Part shown: piece by piece, positions 9,317 to 62,216 of the stretch | How positions within the stretch are numbered: position 1 is the first letter of the stretch | Layout: each line of letters begins with the position of its first letter | Assembly (NCBI RefSeq): GCF_009914755.1 | Contig: NC_060930.1 | DNA length: 64,000 nucleotides | Origin: the human T2T-CHM13v2.0 reference genome, Homo sapiens | Direction: 5' to 3' (one strand) | Made by a program: the position numbers and the translations under genes | The notes under the pieces: model-generated | Seen by the model: only the letters and a program-made list of their open reading frames with translations | What the model was told of the DNA's origin: nothing | The model's database searches: none

Positions 9317-11739
9317 GGTTACCACTGAGGTATATAATTGTTAGAACTCCAGAGAAATCACAAAATTAAACTGAATCCCTGTTGCCCATGGCATGTATAA
9401 AACATTTGCCACTTTACCTAATTTCGTTTTTCCACCAGGAAGTGAACACTGTGAGACTAGAAGGCACTTACATATTAGAAGATGTAAAGATTCCAGGTGA
9501 CCACAATGTGGATATTCTAAATGCAAGAAATATAATTGCTAATTTAATCATTTGAGTTTGAATATTTTTATTACAATGGTCAGCCTGGGTGGAATATATT
9601 TAGAAGGTGATCCATGTGGCCTTTGCTTTCTAGTCTATAGTTTCTGAAATTTGTGTAAAACATGTTATATTACCTCACTAGGAATGGTATATGTGGTTCT
9701 TACTTCATAGATCCCAGATAAGCAAACACCTGTGGCCAAATGAGTGTGGTGTAAGCAGCAAATTTGGGTGACAAGACTTCCCTGGTCTGGATGGAGGCAA
9801 CTATGGATACCTAATTCCATTGGTAATGACAGGATGGACACCTATTGACAAATAAGGAATGGCGTGTTGAGCATTAGGGAACTTGAAACTTGTAATCCTT
9901 ATTGGAGTGTAAAATTTAACAACTATTCTTCAGGGCTTCCTAGTAGTTGAGTCATTTTTTTTTTTTTAATCAAGACTCAAATGAGGTCTAGAGTTAAAAT
10001 ACCCTTCATTTTAACTGAGGGAAAATACCTATTTACTAACAGAAACAAAACACTATGACACTCTGTTTTGTAAATCCTTTTGTGACCTCCTACTTAAAGG
10101 GCACATTTATTTGCCCTTCCTCAAGTTTTCAGGTGAAGGACTCATCATTTCAGCAGTATTGCTGACCTCAGTTTGCTTTCTCTCTCCTTCCGTTTAAGGG
10201 AGGAAGATTGATTGGTTGGAATGGTCACTTTGAAAGAAGGAACTAAGCCTGCTTAATTCACACCCTTCTTTTTGTTTGTTTTTTCTCTTTGAAATATGCC
10301 TGTGTGTAAACACACATTTTCTGTGGTTTAGTGTGGTGAGTTTTATAGATGCAGTATTCTTACGAAAAGCCAGTGGATTTTGACCTGTGTTCATACCTGA
10401 ATGGGACTACTCCTTTAGCACTACAGTTTTGGCAAGTCCGCTTGCTTAACAGATCAAGTCACGACATATAATCTAGTTTTCATCAATGTAAAGGTGATGG
10501 GTTGAACTCCACTGGGGTTACTACTGTGTCAATTTTAAAAGTTTCAAATAGGTGAGGAATTAAGGGTGACGGTGACATATATTTGATCCTATAAAATGCT
10601 AACACTCCTCCTGTTTGTCCTTTCATAGTCCTTAAAGCTCTTTAATAGTGTAATATTGTTTCTATGCTCTAATATCTTAACAAAATTTCATGTGAGCTAA
10701 TGTGATATTTCTTACCATAGAAGAGTAAATTGAAACCTCATGCATTTCTTTTTACTATGCATATTGGTCAGAGTCTAATAATTTGTCACAGAAAACATAC
10801 TGTGTATATTTTGTGTGTCTATATATAACAGGAAAATGTTAAGGCTAGTCTGATCGGTCTTGTTCTATTTTCTATAAGTTTAAAATCATCAACTAAATAC
10901 ATATACAAAAGGAAATTTTGTGACAACTTTACTAAAACATTCAGGTCGACATTTTGAAACGTCCTTTAGCTAAACCAAGACACACGAAGAGAAAAAAAAT
11001 CAAAGCCAAGGAAGAGCTTATGAAAGGCAGAGTAAATCCTTTAGGATGATTAGTTCAGTGAAATATTAAAAGAATATTTTGTCTGCAAGTCAGGTCTCTT
11101 GCTGGTCTCAAACTAGTAATTTGGATTCACTTCATTATAGCCACTGAAGTACCTTAGCAAAGTCTGGGAAGAGGAGCAAAGAGCCAGAAAGAAAAAGAGC
11201 AATAACACTTATATGATGGAGTTACTCTCATAATTCAGCACCAGATAACTCAAACAAGCACCTTGCAAACGACAATGCAGGGCTTAGCTTCACTCTTTGC
11301 GAATAAAAATGCATCACACACAGAAGCCCTCCAGGAGCTCCCTTGATGAGCCTCAAAATGAGTATTCTAAAGATGTAACAAATTTCTCTCTTTGTTTCAA
11401 GAGCTGATTCTTCCATTTTAAATCAAGGATACCTTACAAACCAATGATATCTGACTGAACAACTACTTTCAGGGTAATAAAAGTTGTAATATTTTGCTAA
11501 AAACACATGGATTTTGCATACTGGCAATTTTGTTAATGTGAATTCATATATATTTTTTAAAACAACTCTTTAACTATTTTATACAGTTTTTCATGGGCAA
11601 TATCAGGAGTGGAATTTTTGAATGACCTGATTATTTACTAGCCTGGCTCTTTTCAGAAAACCTGATACTCAAAGGAATACTACACTGATAATAAATAGAT
11701 TTGAATTCATTGTAAGAAGAAAGAAAGGTTTGTACATGG

Positions 11740-44177: not shown

Positions 44178-46937
44178 ACTTCCTTATAGTTGGAGGGTGA
44201 GAAGAAGTCATCATCTATCACTATATCAGGAAAAATAACCTGACAATAAAGCTTAGAATGCCAATTAGATAGTGAGTATAAATAATTAAACCATACACTG
44301 AAAAACAAGACAGGTACTTACTAAATGTCTTCTTCTCCATATGCTTTAAGTGTCTGTTCCTTTTCTTGGTAGATTATAACGAAAGCTACTGAGCAGTCTT
44401 TGTGTAAGTAGAGATTGTGGTTGGTCATAAGTGAGTCAGTCAAGAGCAAAAACTCACAACTATTTTCTTAAATGCTAAATTCAGTGTGATTTATATCAGA
44501 ATATTTTAAATAAATATAAAAATTAGTGCATGTTAGACAATAAAATAATCTAAACTTCAAGTGTACTAAAAGTGTATATCTCTTAAGTTCATTTGCATAT
44601 AATATGAATCATATAGGAACATAGTATATTCAATAGTGCAGAAAATGTGTCATCCAGCTTCTTTGAGAGACTCTATAATGTAATGGAAAGCCAGCGTTGG
44701 TTTAGAGCTCACGTGCTCTGTAAACACATTCAGTTGAAATGCCTCCGTGCTTCTGCTGTTGAAGAATATATTTTTCTCTAGTAAGCATTAGTCCCTTCAA
44801 GAAAGCAACCAACTAACCACTGAAAGTCCCCTCTCTATCAGGAAGAGCAGAGGGCTCTGCTACTGTGTCAAAGTCCGCAGAAATGGATGGAAAAAGCCTT
44901 GTAAGCTTAAAGTGCATCATTCCAATAAAAGTAAATGAAATTAGATAAAAGTTGCATTCATTAAACTATTGTTTCATTTTTTAATATGAGGTACATTAAT
45001 ATTGACTGTATTAACAGTTCAATTGTACATTTGGTCCAAGGTCATAATATAGCAACTTAGGTTTCCTTTGGAAAAAAAAATGCAGAAAATATTTCAGCTT
45101 TCTTTTTTTTTAATTAAAAAAGACAAGTAAAAATGTGACTACTGCTTTGAAACTTTATCTAACTAAGCACAAACCACATGGAAAGATGCATAAATGTAAA
45201 ACTAACTTTTTGCTGTTCAGAAAAAGAATTTGGATTTGATAGCAAGTGAGCTAAAATAAAAACATGCATAATTTACACTACAGATGGGTATATTCTCTAC
45301 ATTAAATGATACCTAGCGATTTCAAGGAGAAAGAAACTAAAGTGACAATCAACATTAAGAAGGTGGCAGAAGTAATCAAACACATGCCATGTGTAAGAAA
45401 AGGCATAATGAAGTTTCCATAAGAATGTTTTTTTCATGACTCAGACACCAAATAACTGTTTCACAAGCTTCAGCAGAAGTTCCACTGCACTTATCAATAA
45501 TGCATCCAGCTACAGCTTTAGATATTAAAACAAGCAGAAGTTGCTTGTATCAAAGAATCAAAGCTGAAACACATTATACTATGGAGCTTAAAACCAGACA
45601 AGAAAAATGTGAGTGTGAGGGAGATGGATAGTGTGCAGATGCAAAAACACTTTTGTTGAAACTTGAGAATAAATTAGCAATAAGGCACAAGGCCTTTAAT
45701 TTTACAAATCATAGCTCAACCAAAGATTCCTAGGCCAGAACAAAATGTTTGCCATTTCAACAATATCTATTAGGCAAGGGAAAGATGGAGAGCATTGCAA
45801 TTTGAAGCATTTGCTTTGCATGCAATAATTTCGTTGGCGACAGCCATTATGTTTGTTGAAGACCTCTGCAGAAACAGAACTATATTACAGAACTTTTTGG
45901 TTCTGAATTGAAGCACATTAGTAAAGGAAAAGAGTGCAGTTAGTATTACCAGGTTTGATATTTATACTCACAGATAGAGGATCAATATGGCCCCAGTGAT
46001 AATTCATAAATAAATGTTATTATGGAAAAAACTCATCATTACAAGTTTAATGTAGAATGATTTTTGTTGTAGTTTAACAAATATTATCATAAGTAGATGA
46101 TACTTCAACTTAGTTGATTCATACCATTTTGTATTGCTTTTTTGTTTAGTAGTATTTCACCAAAACATTCCAGGTATGTCTCAGTACATTCAGGAAAGTA
46201 AAATCTACAAAAGTCCATAGTATATGGCACTATAAGTTTCTAATATGTAAGTGAAAATTATCTCTTTATCAATTACTAGGAAATAAATTAAAATAAACAT
46301 TCTGTGATTCATGTTTGGTTCTATGAACGCCAGCCAAATGAACTTCAAATCTAGATAGAGCTATTAGGCAACAAAAATGCAGAAGATTTAGCAGATGGTA
46401 ATTACGTATGTAAAATGCATGCTTTGAAAGTGCCAAAACTTTAAACTTGAGTAAGTTTTAGAAACTCCTTTTTGCGGGTAATCAGGGCACTATTTTCCAA
46501 TTTTTTTATCTTTAAAATTTGCCTCAATTATAACAACACTTTCTGGGCTCAGGACCCTCACTTAAAGTAAAGATGTTAAAGCAGATAGTGTTTATATCTG
46601 GGTAATTTTCAGGCCTCATTGATTCGGACTATATTGTATCTAAATATCAGGGTAGTCATGTGTTTCTATCTAACATCTTCTTTAGGCCCACTTACAAAAT
46701 CTTAACTCTAGTAACACTTAAAGAAGAAAAAATAACTACCAAGAGAAAACCCCAAAAATAAAAATGTCAATTAATATCTTTGTGTCCATCTAAAAATTAT
46801 CCTTACAATAAAAAATATTATTTTTCCCTTTAATTGTCAATATAATGTTTCTAGATAGAGTAGTGACTTAGTTTTCCAAAGGGAAAATTATTAAAACTAA
46901 TACTTAGAAATAAGTTATCTTATATAAAATATAAAAT

Positions 46938-47079
46938 ATTTTATTTTATATTATGTTTTGTAGACATGGGGGTCTTGCTATGTTGCCTAGACTAGCCTCA
47001 AGCTCCTGATTTCAAGCAATCCTCCCTCCTCAGCTTCCCAAAGTGCTGGGATTACGGGTATGAGCCACTGCTCCTGGCT
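46938..47079 (-). mobile_element. FLAM (free left Alu monomer)
   Basis: ggggtcttgctatgttgcc...aagtgctgggattac...gagccactgctcctggc; TSD aaatataaa on both sides. Confidence 0.9.
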
Positions 47080-47174
47080 AAATATAAATTCTTAAGAGAG
47101 CTAAACTATTACTTTTTTTGTACTGGAGGCTGAAGCATATTTTAAGCAAGGTTATTTTAAGATTTTAAACAGCA

Positions 47175-47491
47175 ATTGAGTACTTTTATTACTCCATGAA
47201 TATATAGCTTATGTAGTCAACTATGTAGATGAAAACATTGTTTTACCTTTGTTGCTGATATGTTGCAATATTGTTCAACAATGTAATGCTTTTACATTTG
47301 TATCTGCAATTCATGTGAATGTTTATTTTTTCCAGAATAATTCTCTGCAACAATCAAGACCAATTGCATTAAGACAAAAAGTTTACAAAATGACAAGATC
47401 ATTACATAATTTACAACTCTGTTGATAGAGTACCTATACAAGTAACACTAAGTATGTATAATGAGCACACTGTACATACTTCAAAATTTGC
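47175..47491 (+). repeat. Inverted repeat, left arm (317 bp)
   Basis: Reverse complement of 49251-49567 with 3 substitutions and no indels (aligned by hand). Confidence 0.98.
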
Positions 47492-47782
47492 CATTTAATT
47501 GTATTCTATGGTAGCTCATTTGATTAATATGGGCAACATTAGTGTAAATTGGCAAAGCAACTACTACATGTGTAAACAATGCCACTTCATTACCTTACTT
47601 CGCTAAATAAAAGCTAAAGCTACCATGGAAGTAGTCTGGAATTGTCTTTTGCAATCTGGTCTTTTTTCACCTTAATATTAGGAGCTATTTTTCACAATAA
47701 ACTTGATCCTTTTCTTATAATTATTTGTGCATAAATATTACTTCCTCCAAATGACTGAGTGGACTCTTTGTACATAAAAAAA

Positions 47783-48150
47783 TGCATGATTGAATATTTG
47801 TGTTTCCCCAAAGTGCATAGTTGAAACTCCACTCTCTAACGTGATGATATTAGGAGCTGGGGTCTTCCTGTGGCAACTAGAATTAGATGAGGTCATGAGG
47901 ATGAAGTTCCCATGAATGGGATTAGTGTCCTTATAAGAGTCCCCAGAGATCTTGCTTCCTTTCTCCCTCATGTGATGACATGCAGAAGACTGCTTCTATA
48001 AAACAGAAAGTAGGCTGTCACCAGGCATCAAATCTGCTGAAACCTTGTACCTGGACTTCCTAGCTTCTAGGACTGTGAGAAATAAATGTTTATTGTTTAA
48101 GTCACCTAGTTTATGATATTTTGCTATAGCAGCCTGAATAGACTAAGACA
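47783..48150 (+). mobile_element. MLT1A/MLT1A0 solo LTR within the inverted-repeat spacer
   Basis: ttagatgaggtcatgagg...atgggattagtgtccttataaga...ctgtgagaaataaatg...tatagcagcctgaatagactaagaca. Confidence 0.9.
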
Positions 48151-49250
48151 GAGTTTTCCCTGGTATCTAGCAATTCTTTTTGGCAAAATTAAAGTGAGAG
48201 AAAACAATAAATTGCTCAGGAAATTTTTAAAAACAGAATAAAATAGAACTCTTGAAGCCAGAAATTCAAAAATTCTTTGAAAATAGCATTTCATTATAAT
48301 CAATAGAATTATTCAAAAATAAATCTAATCTATTGTAAATTTAACAATATACCATAGTTCATTTTAACAGAACCACAGAAAGAGCATTCCACTAGGTTAA
48401 ACAAAAAACGATTTCTGTTTACTTTTTAAAATGTTTATACTTTTACGTCAGATGTTATTAGGCAACTTGAAAAATCCTGTATACAAATTCAGTTGCCTCT
48501 AATGATTTTACTATCTCATTGTGTGCATACTTTTCAGCATGAAAACAAATAATTTTGTTAAAAGATAGCCTGTGTAGTGAAATACATATTATTATCACAG
48601 GTTTAAAATGAAAGCAGTTAGTAAACTGTAAACACAAAAAGAAGCAGCTGTTAAAATAATACTTAGCTTATCCATTTAAAGATAACTTTTCTCTACATTC
48701 ATGGAAAAATTCAAGATCGATTAATAAAGTGCAATAATTAAAGAATTATTTCTAAAGATTTTCATGACAGACTGGATTTCCTAAAATGGAGTTAAATGAT
48801 CAATGAGAGATGAGAAAACGTAAGAGTGGATATGTACAATGCAATGCTGTAGTAACCCAATTACTTTCCGTAGTCCTGATAACATGCAATTTCCACACCT
48901 GGGAATATAGTAGGATGTTATTTACACAGTTTGATTCTGAATATATAGTAAACTTTTTTGTTTTCATTTCTGGGCCTATTATTTTCTCTTCCTCTATTTC
49001 TAAGTTAAAAGTGACATTTCTTTCACTCTGCTGTTTGGCTTGACAAACAACGTCTTTCCTCCTCCTGGGATAGATTTGATTGAAGGGGATGCATCAGGTA
49101 GGAAAGTAAAAGTTTTGTTTCCCGATTGCTCTGGCAGTGCCTGCTGCTGACTTCTCATACTGGAGATGACAGCAGCTTCACAAGGTCTTTGCAATTTTAT
49201 ATGCCTGAAAAAAAGGGACATAAAATTTAAACCACGTATAGGAGAAAAAC

Positions 49251-49567
49251 GCAAATTTTGAAGTATGTACAGTGTGCTCATTATACATACTTAGTGTTAC
49301 TTGTATAGGTACTCTATCAACAGAGTTGTAAATTATGTAATGATCTTGTCATTTTGTAAACTTTTTGTCTTAATGCAATTGGTCTTGATTGTTGCAGAGA
49401 ATTATTCTGGAAAAAATAAACATTCACATGAATTGCAAATACAAATGTAAAAGCATTACATTGTTGAACAATATTGCAGCATATCAGCAACAAAGGTAAA
49501 ACAATGTTTTCATCTACATAGTTGACTACATAAGCTATGTATTCATGGAGTAATAAAAGTACTCAAT
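49251..49567 (-). repeat. Inverted repeat, right arm (317 bp)
   Basis: Reverse complement of 47175-47491. Confidence 0.98.
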
Positions 49568-49585
49568 GTTTAATAATAAAAATGC

Positions 49586-49842
49586 TGCTATAGTTTAAAT
49601 GTTTGTGTTTCCCCCAAATTCTTATTTTGAAACCTACTCACCAACATGATGCATTAAGAACTGCACCCTTTGGGAGGTAATTCACGGGGCTCTGCCCTCA
49701 TAAATAGGATTACTGCCCTTAAAAGGGAGGCTCCAGAGACCTGCTTTGCCTCTCCCACTATGTGAGAACACAGCTAAAAGTTGCCATCTGTGAACCAGAA
49801 GACATACCCTCACTAAAAACTGAATCTACTGATGCCTTGATT
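49586..49842 (+). mobile_element. MLT1A/MSTD-like LTR, 3' part missing
   Basis: tgctatagtttaaatgtttgtgtttcccccaaattc...gccctcataaataggatta...gatgccttgatt then stops abruptly. Confidence 0.85.
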
Positions 49843-50027
49843 ACAGTGAACTACAATTAACAACTGTACGCTAATACATTAGATAACCTAGATAAAACGG
49901 ACAAATTCCTAGAAAAACACAAATTGGCAAAACTGACTCAAGAAAAAGCAGAATATTTGCATAGATGTATATTAACTAAAGAGATTGAATAATAAATAAC
50001 TTTTCACAAAGAAAATACCAAGACCAA
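49843..50027 (+). mobile_element. Old L1 ORF2 fragment
   Basis: tagataacctagataaaacggacaaattcctagaaaaacacaaa...aaaactgactcaagaa. Confidence 0.85.
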
Positions 50028-50029
50028 TG

Positions 50030-52790
<2,761 letters not shown>

Positions 52791-59250: not shown

Positions 59251-59309
59251 AACTACGACATTAGTTATTCTATCATTATTGTTAGTACTGCTACTACTAT
59301 TATTATTTC

Positions 59310-59382
59310 TGTAGCGTAAATATATGTTTTTTAAGCCTTCCTAAGTGTGGTAGTTTGTTAAGCAGTTCTAGGAAACTAATAC
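59310..59382 (+). mobile_element. MLT1 LTR 3' terminal fragment
   Basis: ttttttaagcc...gtgtggtagtttgttaagcagttctaggaaactaataca. Confidence 0.75.
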
Positions 59383-60089
59383 AGACACCATTCCCCAAAC
59401 TCAGAAGGTGGAACCTTCTAGAAAAATGCAGAACATAACACAATATGTAGCTAAATCCAAGACCAGGCCAATTAAAATTTTCTTAAAAATGTATTGCAGT
59501 TCAGTTGCTCCAAATGTATACCTGCTTTACTTGAATTGATTGCCTTTACACGTAGCTTTCTTCTTTATCTCTTACATGTTGTGTTTGTCCTCCTGTAAGC
59601 ACCAAGATATTTGGGTAGGTGCTGTACTTATCTAAGGAGAACGAATAGAGACTATACTAACTGAGAGTTGTAAAGACTATCATCAAATACTACTTAGTCA
59701 AAGTGCAGTGCCTTCTTTTTGTATATGTTGCTAAGTCCCCAGGCTCTGTGTCCAGTCTAGTCCTATCCCTACATATGTCTCCAGGTACAAATATAATTGT
59801 AGTCAATTATTTTCAGGCAACTGCCATATTGACTCAGTACTATAAAAAGTCACCCTGTAGTAGGTCCACACATTCAAAAGTTTTAGCATTTTAGGAAGAC
59901 TGGGGAGACCTCTGGAAGCAACATTTTCTCTGCTTGGATTTTTTTTTATGGGTTTTGAAACTACTTGCAAGTGAGCAAGCCTTTTCTACCTAGCTTTTTA
60001 ATTGGCATGGTCTTGGATTTAGCTATATATTGTGTTATGTTCTGCATTTTTCTAGAAGATTCCACCTTCTGAGTTTGGAGAATCGTGTC

Positions 60090-60524
60090 TGTATTAGTTT
60101 CCTAGAACTGCTTAACAAATTATCATACTTAGGGAGGTTTAAAAAACATATATTTATTCCACAGAGACTAGTAAGTCCAAAATTGAGACAGTGGAAGGGC
60201 TTGCTCTCTATGAAGGCCGTAGGAAGAATCTGCTCAGTTCCCTTCTTTCAGCTCCTAGTGTCGCCAGCATTACTTGGCCTTCGCTGGTTTGTAGATGCAT
60301 CACTGCAATCTCTGCCTCTGTCACTGCATGACATTCTCTAGTGTATCTCTGTTTCTTATTGTTTTATAAATATATCAGTCATAAAAAAGATTTAAGTCGC
60401 ACATTTTTCAGTAGGAGTTAATCTTAGTTACATCAGCAATGACTGATTCAATTTTCAAGTAAAGTCATATTCTGAGATTCTGGGAAAAACAGGAATTTGG
60501 AGGTAACACAACTCAACCCATACT
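60090..60524 (-). mobile_element. MLT1C solo LTR
   Basis: tgtattagtttcctag...tggtttgtagatgcatcactgcaatctctgcctctgtc...cacaactcaaccca. Confidence 0.88.
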
Positions 60525-61148: not shown

Positions 61149-61324
61149 TATATATTTCATATATATTTCATGTATATATTTCATGTATATATTTCATATA
61201 TATATTTCATGTATATATTTCATGTATATATTTCATGTATATATTTCATGTATATATTTCATGTATATTTCATGTATATATTTCATGTATATTTCATGTA
61301 TATATTTCATATATATATATATAT
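61149..61324. repeat. Minisatellite of (TA)TATATTTCATG 11/13-bp units
   Basis: Tandem tatatatttcatg / tatatttcatg units inside the L1PB 3' end. Confidence 0.95.
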
Positions 61325-62216
61325 AATTTTGTTTATCCACTAGTTGATTGATGGGCTGGTTCCATGTTTTTGCAATTGCAAATTGTACTGCTATAATCAT
61401 GCCTGTATAAGTATCTTTTTGTATAATGATTTCCTTTTGAGGTAGCAGCATAATTCTGAATGGAATGCATTTTCTCTCTTTCTTGGACCCTAAGTAAGTA
61501 CCTCAAATTGCTGTCCTTCAAGTTTATATTGGATTCCTACAGCTTCATGAAATTTCTTCACTGTACTATTGAGAATCTAGTTCAGAAAGTCTCCTCTTTG
61601 ATGTTTAACATGACATCCCTTCCATCTCTACTTTGGTGGCTCTGAAATGCTATTAATTCATGACAGTGAATAGGGTTATAGATTTATTTTTATTTTTATT
61701 TTTATCAATTCCATAGGTTACTGGAGAACAGGTGGTGTTTGGTTACATGAGTAAGTTCTTTAGTGGTGATTTGTGAGATTTTGGTGCACCCATCACACAA
61801 GCAGTACACACTGCACCATATTTGTTGTCTTTTATTCTTCACCCCCTTCCCACCCTTTCCCCAAGTCCCCAAAGTCCATTTTGTTATTCTTATGCCTTTA
61901 CATCCTCATAGCTTAGCTCATAGTTATGAGTGAGAACATACAATGTTTGGTTTTCCATTCCTGAGTTACCTCACTTAGAATAACAGTCTCCAGTCTCATC
62001 CAGGTCACCACTGTGAATGCCATTAACTCATTCCTTTTTATAGCTGAGTAGTAGTCCCTCATATACATATATATATATAAAATCACAGTTTCTTTATCCA
62101 TGTTGATTGATGGGGATTTGTGTTGGTTCCACTTTTTTGCAATTGTAAATTGTGCTGCTATAAACATGCATGTGCAAGTATCTTTTTCGTATAATGACTT
62201 CTTTTCCACTGGATAG

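What the first reader, a model, noticed from the sequence alone, without database searches (positions are those of the whole stretch)
47175..49567. 317-bp, 99%-identical inverted repeat of apparently non-TE DNA around a 1,759-bp spacer
Seen: 47175-47491 is the reverse complement of 49251-49567 with no indels and only 3 transitions (47203/49539, 47263/49479, 47304/49438). All three lie in the outer 130 bp; the inner 187 bp are identical. I recognise no TE in the arms and see no TSD, while the surrounding TEs are heavily decayed. Established: near-identical inverted repeats mediate recurrent inversions by NAHR and are homogenised by gene conversion. Inference: this is either a very recent inverted duplication (template switch) or an older palindrome kept identical by conversion, and the spacer (47492-49250) may be an invertible, polymorphic segment that short reads would miss.
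Basis: partly seen in the sequence, partly recalled or inferred. Interest (0 to 1): 0.8.

Follow-up and report, generated by a model that had tools for sequence, protein, structure and literature searches.

The report
Small recent inverted duplication, gene desert
A 317-base stretch of unique human DNA on chromosome 6 was copied, flipped and reinserted about 1.8 kb away a few million years ago, leaving a real but probably functionless inverted repeat that has not been reported to flip the DNA between its arms.

Summary
47175-47491 is the reverse complement of 49251-49567: 317 nt, 3 transitions, no indel, 1,759-bp spacer.

- **Not a transposon.** The arms occur only twice in the 3.1-Gb assembly. 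Both flanks and most of the spacer are single-copy. There is no target-site duplication.
- **Age.** Arm divergence of 0.95% dates the copy to about 5-10 My, with a 95% range of 1-28 My.
- **No sign of gene conversion.** The clustering of the three differences is not significant (p = 0.07-0.27). The arms are not GC-enriched.
- **Earlier listing.** The right arm is a 314-bp human-chimpanzee "inverted" alignment in Feuk 2005 Table S1, with 0% repeat cover and 99.36% match. The spacer is not listed there. This argues against an inversion that made the repeat. It hints that the right arm is the derived copy.
- **No spacer-sized inversion call.** None appears in a T2T-based callset of 41 people. None appears in the GRCh38-based table of 65 people.
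- **Open lead.** One low-confidence 334-bp call lies nearby and could not be placed.

Verdict: an ordinary small inverted duplication, probably made by switch-and-return DNA synthesis. Low interest.

The parts
47175..47491 (+). Left arm of the inverted repeat. 317 nt, 28.7% GC, no CpG.
   Evidence: It has only two copies in the whole assembly.
47492..49250 (.). Spacer of 1,759 bp at 33% GC. It is single-copy except for one old LTR-like repeat. No Pfam family reached its cut-off and no Rfam family matched.
   Evidence: uniqueness; ORFs, Pfam; Rfam.
47782..48157 (+). Old interspersed repeat inside the spacer. There are thousands of candidate copies genome-wide at 70-77% identity. It looks like a MaLR/MLT1-type LTR; that name is recalled, not tested.
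   Evidence: 4,596 candidates, of which 40 were scored; the 39 hits at other loci lie within query positions 291-666.
49251..49567 (-). Right arm, the reverse complement of the left arm. It corresponds to hg17 chr6:94,773,751-94,774,064 in Feuk 2005 Table S1, where it is a 314-bp inverted alignment to chimpanzee. It is possibly the derived copy.
   Evidence: For some searches, the end-to-end distance to the second listed row is 9,909 bp, against 9,910 bp in the window.
47162..47174 (+). Possible outer extension or microhomology. TTAAAC is shared with 49568-49577 once a 4-nt (AGCA) and a 1-nt indel are allowed. This may be chance.
   Evidence: gapped local alignment.
49585..49841 (+). Second old LTR-like repeat starting about 17 bp outside the right arm. 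It aligns to the spacer copy only over about 70 nt at 76%, so the two are probably not the LTR pair of one provirus.

Best explanation
A 317-bp piece of single-copy, AT-rich intergenic DNA was copied once in reverse-complement orientation and placed 1.76 kb from its source. The spacer was not inverted in the process.

The most likely route is a DNA-level switch-and-return event. A growing 3' end, at a replication fork or during break repair, left its template and primed on the complementary strand about 2 kb away. It copied 317 nt and then returned or was ligated back. This is the '3-2-1-4' order of the four-point template-switch model, equivalent to a fold-back with capture.

The event dates to roughly the time of the human-chimpanzee split: point estimate 5-10 My, 95% range 1-28 My. 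The right arm is probably the new copy. Since then the two arms have diverged neutrally.

The structure has no detectable coding, RNA or mobile-element function. It is a passive substrate on which non-allelic recombination could in principle flip the spacer, at a low rate.

What is shown: the repeat, its uniqueness, its age range, and the absence of TE hallmarks. What is inferred: the mechanism, which arm is the copy, and neutrality.
For: - **Structure.**
- **Uniqueness.** The arms have only 2 genome-wide matches. The flanks 47079-47174 and 47492-47781 and the spacer stretch 48170-49250 each have 1 match, themselves.
- **No mobile-element hallmarks.** There is no poly-A tail and no TSD at either arm (sequence).
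- **Age.** K = 0.0095, which gives 4.8-9.5 My at 1.0-0.5e-9 per site per year (rates recalled). That is 0.77-1.0 times the human-chimpanzee divergence.
- **Feuk 2005 Table S1.** The right arm, and only the arm, is an inverted net alignment to the chimpanzee draft: 314/318 bp, 0% duplication, 0% repeat, 99.36% match. The simplest reading is that the chimpanzee draft had no collinear partner for the right arm, and the gap was filled by the ortholog of the left arm.
- **Precedent.** Template switching that creates inverted repeats is documented in human-chimpanzee comparisons, at much shorter scale (passages of PMC5453318).
Against: - No outgroup or second human haplotype could be aligned here. 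Which arm is the copy, and whether the copy is human-specific, both rest on one row of a 2005 table built on a 4x draft.
- The neighbouring older repeat (arms 92% identical) shows the same kind of row in that table. There it must be explained by a draft gap or loss, so the same trivial explanation may hold for this arm.
- The chimpanzee distance between the two rows is 14,824 bp. That is about 2 kb more than any simple model predicts.
- Microhomology at the junctions is weak: AAA/TTT offset by 2 nt at the inner junction, and TTAAAC with a 4-nt filler at the outer one.
- With only 3 differences, the age interval is wide.
Confidence: 0.68

Rival explanations
1. An older palindrome whose arms are kept about 99% identical by recurrent arm-to-arm gene conversion, as in the large X/Y palindromes.
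For: The arms are 99.05% identical with a perfect 187-nt inner tract. Surrounding repeats are far more decayed, at 70-77%.
Against: - The position of the 3 differences is compatible with random placement: p = 0.069, 0.14 and 0.27 depending on the test.
- There is no GC enrichment of the arms, as GC-biased conversion would give: 28.7-29.0% against 33% in the spacer and 32-36% in the 5-kb flanks. The expectation comes from the abstract of PMC8981503 in the listing.
- The arms are 317 bp. The conversion-maintained palindromes I recall have arms of kilobases.
- A divergence of 0.95% needs no homogenisation if the copy is a few My old.
Confidence: 0.1
2. The repeat is the by-product of an inversion. 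Staggered breaks, or a replication-based inversion of 'arm plus spacer', duplicated the 317 bp at both ends. On this reading the spacer is inverted relative to the ancestor.
For: Inverted duplications at breakpoints are a known signature of inversions made by staggered breaks (recalled from Drosophila work). Giner-Delgado 2019 describes non-homologous human inversions with small insertions or deletions attributed to FoSTeS/MMBIR (passages). The final structure, arm-spacer-arm', is exactly what this model predicts.
Against: In the hg17-panTro1 list, only the 314-bp arm is inverted. There is no row for the 1.76-kb spacer, although every number beginning 9476-9481 was searched. This rests on one draft-based table that its own authors say holds many false calls.
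Confidence: 0.07
3. An active inversion switch: the spacer is currently polymorphic in orientation in humans through recombination between the arms. This can coexist with the best explanation for how the repeat arose.
For: Validated human inversions include ones with breakpoint repeats as short as 140 bp (section 4 of PMC13629690). The arms are 99% identical and only 1.76 kb apart. A low-confidence 334-bp INV call lies within my coordinate uncertainty of the locus.
Against: - 0 of 10 chr6 rows of the T2T-based table from 41 people are near 95.2 Mb, and no number beginning 9521 or 9522 occurs in its supplements.
- The only 'chr6-940...' ID in the 65-person GRCh38 table is 334 bp, not 1.8-2.4 kb.
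- The 24 NAHR inversions in Giner-Delgado 2019 have repeats of 654 bp to 24.2 kb.
- The longest perfect tract here is 187 nt. That is below the roughly 300-bp minimum I recall for efficient meiotic NAHR.
Confidence: 0.1
4. A non-autonomous DNA transposon or foldback element with 317-bp terminal inverted repeats, or else an assembly artefact.
For: The overall shape, long terminal inverted repeats around a 1.8-kb core, resembles such elements.
Against: - There are only two arm copies in 3.1 Gb, and the core is unique apart from an unrelated old LTR.
- There is no TSD.
- No transposase-like ORF or Pfam hit above cut-off was found in 5 ORFs tested.
- Against an artefact: hg17 is an independent clone-based assembly, and it has the right arm at the same distance (within 1 bp over 9.9 kb) from the next repeat.
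Confidence: 0.02

Closest known systems
Inverted repeats created by replication template switching (four-point model; Loytynoja & Goldman 2017, PMC5453318; Walker et al. 2021, PMC7954356)
   Same: A reverse-complement copy of nearby sequence is inserted close to its source. There are no transposon hallmarks. It arose on the great-ape time scale.
   Different: I saw only passages of the first paper and only the listing abstract of the second. Both concern short-range events. I recall the copied tracts as tens of bases and the switch distances as very short. Here the copied tract is 317 nt and the jump is about 2 kb. That places it between those events and kilobase-scale FoSTeS/MMBIR rearrangements.
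Inverted-repeat-mediated (NAHR) human inversions of the InvFEST / HsInv series (Aguado 2014; Giner-Delgado 2019; Moreira-Pinhal 2026)
   Same: A pair of highly identical inverted repeats flanks a short unique segment. The repeat length lies inside the 140 bp-190 kb range used for candidates.
   Different: Both orientations have not been seen here in the callsets I could search. The arms are shorter than the 654 bp-24.2 kb repeats of the 24 NAHR inversions studied in 2019. Table S1 of the 612-candidate catalogue is not held, so I could not check whether this locus is in it.
Inverted segmental duplications and large palindromes (X/Y palindromes; Jackson 2021, PMC8327919 and PMC8981503)
   Same: Arm-to-arm identity of about 99% around a unique spacer.
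   Different: The arms are 317 bp, below the 1 kb at 90% or more that defines a segmental duplication. They are far below kilobase-scale palindrome arms. No genes are present, there is no GC-biased conversion signature, and the locus is autosomal gene desert.
Putative human-chimpanzee inversions of Feuk et al. 2005 (PMC1270012, Table S1)
   Same: The right arm is literally one of the 1,576 listed regions: hg17 chr6:94,773,751-94,774,064.
   Different: The table treats it as a candidate 314-bp inversion. In the T2T sequence it is one arm of an inverted duplication, so the 'inversion' is most simply a paralogous fill. The authors themselves warn of many false positives among short entries.

Membership tests
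Segmental duplication (standard definition) | Copies of at least 1 kb with at least 90% identity, not made only of common repeats | tested here: not met
   Identity is 99.05%, but the length is 317 nt. The definition is quoted.
IR-mediated polymorphic inversion (NAHR) | Inverted repeats above 90% identity at both ends of the segment | tested here: met
IR-mediated polymorphic inversion (NAHR) | Both orientations of the segment observed among individuals | tested here: inconclusive
   There is no matching row in the T2T-based table from 41 people or in the GRCh38-based table from 65 people. No haplotypes were examined directly, and one 334-bp call is unplaced.
Gene-conversion-maintained palindrome | Arm-to-arm identity higher than identity between orthologous arms of related species | not testable with these tools
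   No primate genome is on hand. The only figures are human right arm against chimpanzee at 99.36%, and human arm against arm at 99.05%.
Gene-conversion-maintained palindrome | GC enrichment of the arms by biased conversion, or a non-random distribution of differences | tested here: not met
   Arm GC is 28.7-29.0% against 33% in the spacer. Clustering p = 0.07-0.27.
DNA transposon / foldback element with long TIRs | Target-site duplication flanking the terminal repeats | tested here: not met
   The flanks read ...TTAAACAGCA| and |GTTTAATAAT... and share no direct repeat.
DNA transposon / foldback element with long TIRs | Multiple dispersed copies of the family | tested here: not met
   There are 2 matches genome-wide, both of them the arms. 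The core is unique.
Retrocopy (L1-mediated duplication) | Poly-A tail and 7-20 bp TSD at the copy | tested here: not met
   Neither arm has an A- or T-run at either end on either strand.
Template-switch / fold-back inverted duplication | Reverse-complement copy of nearby sequence with the intervening DNA left in its original orientation | tested here: inconclusive
   The copy is shown. The spacer is not listed as inverted against the chimpanzee draft, but no direct alignment was possible.
Template-switch / fold-back inverted duplication | Microhomology or short filler at the switch points | tested here: inconclusive
   Only AAA/TTT offset by 2 nt at the inner junction, and TTAAAC plus a 4-nt AGCA at the outer one. 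This is within what chance gives in AT-rich DNA.

The most novel reading that the evidence does not exclude
The locus is a young, possibly human-specific fold-back duplication that is still structurally unstable in people. On this reading, the unplaced low-confidence call 'chr6-94031362-INV-334' (GRCh38) sits on the right arm. The arm plus its weak extensions spans 332 bp (49246-49577). It would mean that arm-sized DNA differs in orientation or presence between GRCh38 and other haplotypes. The same region also shows two inverted duplications within 12 kb, which would suggest a local hotspot of template switching.
Probability: 0.1. Interest if true: 0.5.

Novelty: new member of a known kind. 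Interest (0 to 1): 0.22.

Why it matters
Sub-kilobase, highly identical inverted duplications fall below the 1-kb threshold of segmental-duplication tracks. They are therefore invisible in standard annotation. They can still seed inversions, confuse alignments (this one was listed as a human-chimpanzee 'inversion' in 2005), and record how template switching acts at the hundreds-of-bases scale. This single case lies in a gene desert with no annotated gene within 100 kb. It shows no functional signal, so by itself it matters little. It would matter more as one data point in a genome-wide census of such repeats in complete assemblies.

Tried and rejected
- **MaLR provirus idea.** I asked whether the spacer LTR and the right-flank LTR are the two LTRs of one provirus. 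That would place the right arm inside its internal region and make it the ancestral copy. I rejected this: the two LTRs align over only about 70 nt at 76%, and 48170-49250 has no other genomic match.
- **Coding or pseudogene content.** There are 19 stop-to-stop ORFs of at least 45 aa. Five were scanned against Pfam, and none reached a curated cut-off.
- **Structured RNA.** The only Rfam hit in 45000-52000 is a sub-threshold SRP/Alu-like match at 46966-47078.
- **Which arm is the copy, from interrupted repeats.** Both flanks of the left arm and the inner flank of the right arm are single-copy, so no split element reveals it.
- **Papers not held.** Porubsky 2022 and Ebert 2021 were not available by DOI or PMC id.
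- **Giner-Delgado 2019 supplements.** In the 12 of 18 supplementary files that the search fetched, 'chr6' occurs only in GWAS rows for HsInv0058; 6 files were not searched.
- **A 2026 inversion benchmark.** It has no T2T number 95216-95219.
- **Placing the 334-bp INV call.** The anchors are GRCh38 89,213,914 = T2T 90,422,569 and GRCh38 106,721,331 = T2T 107,897,410. These leave a 33-kb uncertainty.
  - If hg17 and hg18 agree here, which I assume, the call lies about 9 kb beyond the window end. I fetched that stretch (L011) and saw no repeat flanking a 334-bp segment.
  - No such short-repeat signature was seen in 37000-64000 either.
Full report
**1. The observation**

The window is T2T-CHM13 chr6:95,170,001-95,234,000. 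The repeat finder reports one outstanding inverted pair, 47175-47496 / 49246-49567 (322 nt, 98% complementary).

A base-by-base comparison gives 317 nt (47175-47491 against the reverse complement of 49251-49567). There are exactly three mismatches and no indel:
- 47203/49539, T against C
- 47263/49479, T against C
- 47304/49438, C against T

All three are transitions. The spacer is 1,759 bp. Past both ends the ungapped match drops to background, 31 and 32 of 100 positions. A gapped alignment adds about 9 matched bases outward (47162-47174 / 49568-49577) across a 4-nt and a 1-nt indel, which I treat as possibly chance.

Among the 22 inverted pairs of at least 60 nt in the whole window, this is the longest and the most identical.

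**2. What the pieces are**

A search of the whole 3.1-Gb assembly with the left arm finds two places only, the two arms (E = 6e-161 and 5e-157). The tool warns that its counts are lower bounds, but a young repeat family would not be missed.

The remaining pieces were searched the same way:
- **Spacer.** It is single-copy except for 47782-48157. That stretch belongs to an abundant old family: 4,596 first-look candidates, 40 scored, and 70-77% identity at the 39 other loci. From memory it looks like a MaLR/MLT1-type LTR; I could not test the name.
- **Stretches 48170-49250, 47492-47781 and 47079-47174.** Each matches only itself.
- **Right flank.** Another old LTR-like fragment lies at 49585-49841, followed by a different repeat.

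Other checks were negative:
- No poly-A tail and no target-site duplication at either arm or around the whole unit.
- No Pfam family above its cut-off in the 5 ORFs tested out of the 19 listed.
- No Rfam match apart from a sub-threshold Alu/SRP-like hit left of the structure.

The arms are AT-rich (28.7% and 29.0% GC) and hold no CpG. As single-stranded DNA the 2,393 nt fold with 316 of the 317 arm positions paired arm to arm. That is simply what the repeat implies.

**3. Age and the gene-conversion question**

Three differences in 317 nt give K = 0.0095. The Poisson 95% interval is 0.002-0.028. With recalled rates of 0.5-1.0e-9 per site per year, the point estimate is 9.5-4.8 My and the outer limits are 1-28 My. 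Relative to the 1.23% human-chimpanzee divergence quoted in Feuk 2005, the ratio is 0.77.

For three randomly placed differences:
- p = 0.069 for that end
- p = 0.14 for either end
- p = 0.27 for any perfect tract of at least 187 nt

The arms are not GC-richer than the spacer (33%), the 5-kb flanks (32% and 36%) or the window (34%). Long-running GC-biased conversion would predict enrichment; that expectation comes from the abstract of PMC8981503 in the listing. Nothing here calls for homogenisation. Divergence simply tracking age is sufficient.

**4. Evidence from print: chimpanzee**

Table S1 of Feuk et al. 2005 (PMC1270012) lists hg17-panTro1 net alignments of inverted orientation. I saw part 1 of the supplement, the hit rows, and passages of the main text. 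Two of its rows fall in this window:

| hg17 chr6 | Chimpanzee chr5 | Human / chimpanzee length | % duplication | % repeat | % match |
|---|---|---|---|---|---|
| 94,773,751-94,774,064 | 96,520,973-96,521,290 | 314 / 318 bp | 0 | 0 | 99.36 |
| 94,783,813-94,783,973 | 96,535,797-96,535,957 | 161 / 161 bp | 0 | 41 | 94.41 |

The end-to-end distance between the two rows is 9,909 bp. The distance from the end of the right arm (49567) to the end of the left arm of the window's second inverted repeat (59477) is 9,910 bp. No other pairing of arms comes within 600 bp. Row 1 is therefore the right arm (about 49254-49567), and row 2 is 59316-59476.

Four things follow:
- An independent, clone-based human assembly has the right arm in the same place. 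This argues against an artefact.
- RepeatMasker found no repeat in the arm at the time.
- Only the arm, not the 1.76-kb spacer, was inverted against chimpanzee. I searched every number beginning 9476 to 9481. This speaks against the model in which an inversion of arm plus spacer created the repeat.
- An inverted fill of arm length is what one expects if the chimpanzee draft had no collinear partner for the right arm, so the gap was filled by the ortholog of the left arm. That would make the right arm the derived copy, perhaps one specific to the human lineage.

There are cautions. The draft was low-coverage, and the authors state that many short entries are false. The neighbouring repeat has arms only 92% alike, so it is surely older than the split, yet it shows the same kind of row. 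For that repeat a draft gap or loss must be invoked. The chimpanzee spacing of the two rows (14,824 bp) exceeds every simple expectation by at least 2 kb.

**5. Evidence from print: human polymorphism**

*Porubsky et al. 2023* (PMC10150506; passages and supplementary tables). This study called 373 inverted regions against T2T-CHM13 in 41 people.
- No number beginning 9521 or 9522 occurs in its three supplementary files.
- The 10 chr6 rows of Table S1 lie at 26.6 (three rows), 65.4, 77.3, 124.3, 131.7, 143.1 and 168.6 (two rows) Mb.
- The known 317-bp inversion HsInv0059 is also missing from those 10 rows, so sensitivity for very small events is limited. Events of 2.2-4.3 kb are present.
- Its Table S4 gave two GRCh38-T2T anchors. 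They place the locus at GRCh38 chr6:94.008-94.041 Mb.

*Logsdon et al. 2025* (PMC12350169; passages and one supplementary workbook that was cut when stored). Table 38 holds GRCh38-based PAV inversions from 65 people.
- Its only ID beginning 'chr6-940' is chr6-94031362-INV-334. The verdict is 'lowconf', with 38 ref, 18 het and 8 hom.
- No 1.8-2.4 kb inversion is listed in chr6:94.0-94.1 Mb.

I could not decide whether the 334-bp call lies on this structure. I took the Feuk coordinate together with the hg18-GRCh38 offset of HsInv0059, and assumed that hg17 and hg18 agree here. That places the call about 24 kb to the right of the right arm, 9 kb outside the window. A 24-kb shift between hg17 and hg18 would put it on the right arm. 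The anchor I looked for was not in Feuk's table, and the look-ups were then exhausted.

*Moreira-Pinhal et al. 2026* (PMC13629690; abstract and two sections). This 612-candidate catalogue accepts repeats down to 140 bp. Its table is not held.

*Giner-Delgado 2019* (passages). The 24 NAHR inversions had repeats of 654 bp to 24.2 kb.

**6. Mechanism**

The facts are these:
- a single reverse-complement copy of 317 nt of unique DNA lies 1.76 kb from its source
- the spacer is apparently not inverted
- there is no TSD, no poly-A tail and no family of copies

Together they fit a DNA-level switch-and-return event. A 3' end leaves its template, primes on the complementary strand about 2 kb behind, copies 317 nt, and then returns or is joined back. 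In the four-point notation of Loytynoja and Goldman (passages) the order is 3-2-1-4. A fold-back at a resected break followed by end capture gives the same product.

Junction microhomology is weak (AAA/TTT, and TTAAAC plus the filler AGCA). It neither supports nor refutes this. The mechanism is inferred, not shown.

The repeat can in principle mediate inversion of the spacer. Its longest perfect tract is 187 nt, and the published callsets have no entry for it. Together these suggest a low rate.

**7. Comparison and verdict**

It works like the inverted repeats made by template switching, but at a scale of hundreds rather than tens of bases.
- It is not a segmental duplication by the standard definition, because it is too short.
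- It is not a conversion-maintained palindrome by any test I could run.
- It is not a transposon.
- It is not a documented inversion polymorphism.

Its right arm has sat in a 2005 supplementary table as a putative 314-bp human-chimpanzee inversion. The complete sequence shows that this entry is one arm of an inverted duplication.

I rate it a new member of a known kind, in a gene desert, with no sign of function. It is real and neatly explained, but of low interest unless the unplaced 334-bp call turns out to sit on it.

Noticed in passing
window 59308-59477 and 59996-60165: A second, older inverted duplication: 170-nt arms, 92% complementary, 518-nt spacer. Only arm positions about 10-90 match a dispersed repeat family (43 candidates, 40 scored). 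The rest of the arm occurs only in these two arms. The duplicated piece therefore spans a junction of repeat and unique DNA. Its left arm is also a row in Feuk 2005 Table S1 (161 bp, 94.41% match). That makes two small inverted duplications within 12 kb.
   Followed up: partly
GRCh38 chr6:94,031,361-94,031,695. In the window this is either about 49,250 or about 73,300, i.e. beyond the window end. Unresolved.: This is the low-confidence PAV inversion call chr6-94031362-INV-334 in Logsdon 2025 Supplementary Table 38 (38 ref, 18 het, 8 hom). It lies within the uncertainty of my coordinate conversion. No repeat signature was seen at the alternative site (L011).
   Followed up: partly
window 46966-47078 (- strand): A short Alu-monomer-like fragment just left of the repeat. 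It is seen as a sub-threshold Metazoa_SRP match (26 bits against a 70-bit gathering score), preceded by an AT-rich palindromic stretch at 46924-46951.
   Followed up: no
window 49850-52000: A strong A-over-T skew (0.25-0.39) and a GC rise to 0.46-0.52 at 50000-50900. Many genomic copies at 77-82% identity start from 50027. This looks like a sense-strand L1-type element abutting the truncated LTR; the family name was not tested.
   Followed up: no
window 61159-61327: An AT-rich tandem or palindromic stretch built on a (TATATATTTCATG)-like unit, giving several overlapping imperfect inverted pairs.
   Followed up: no
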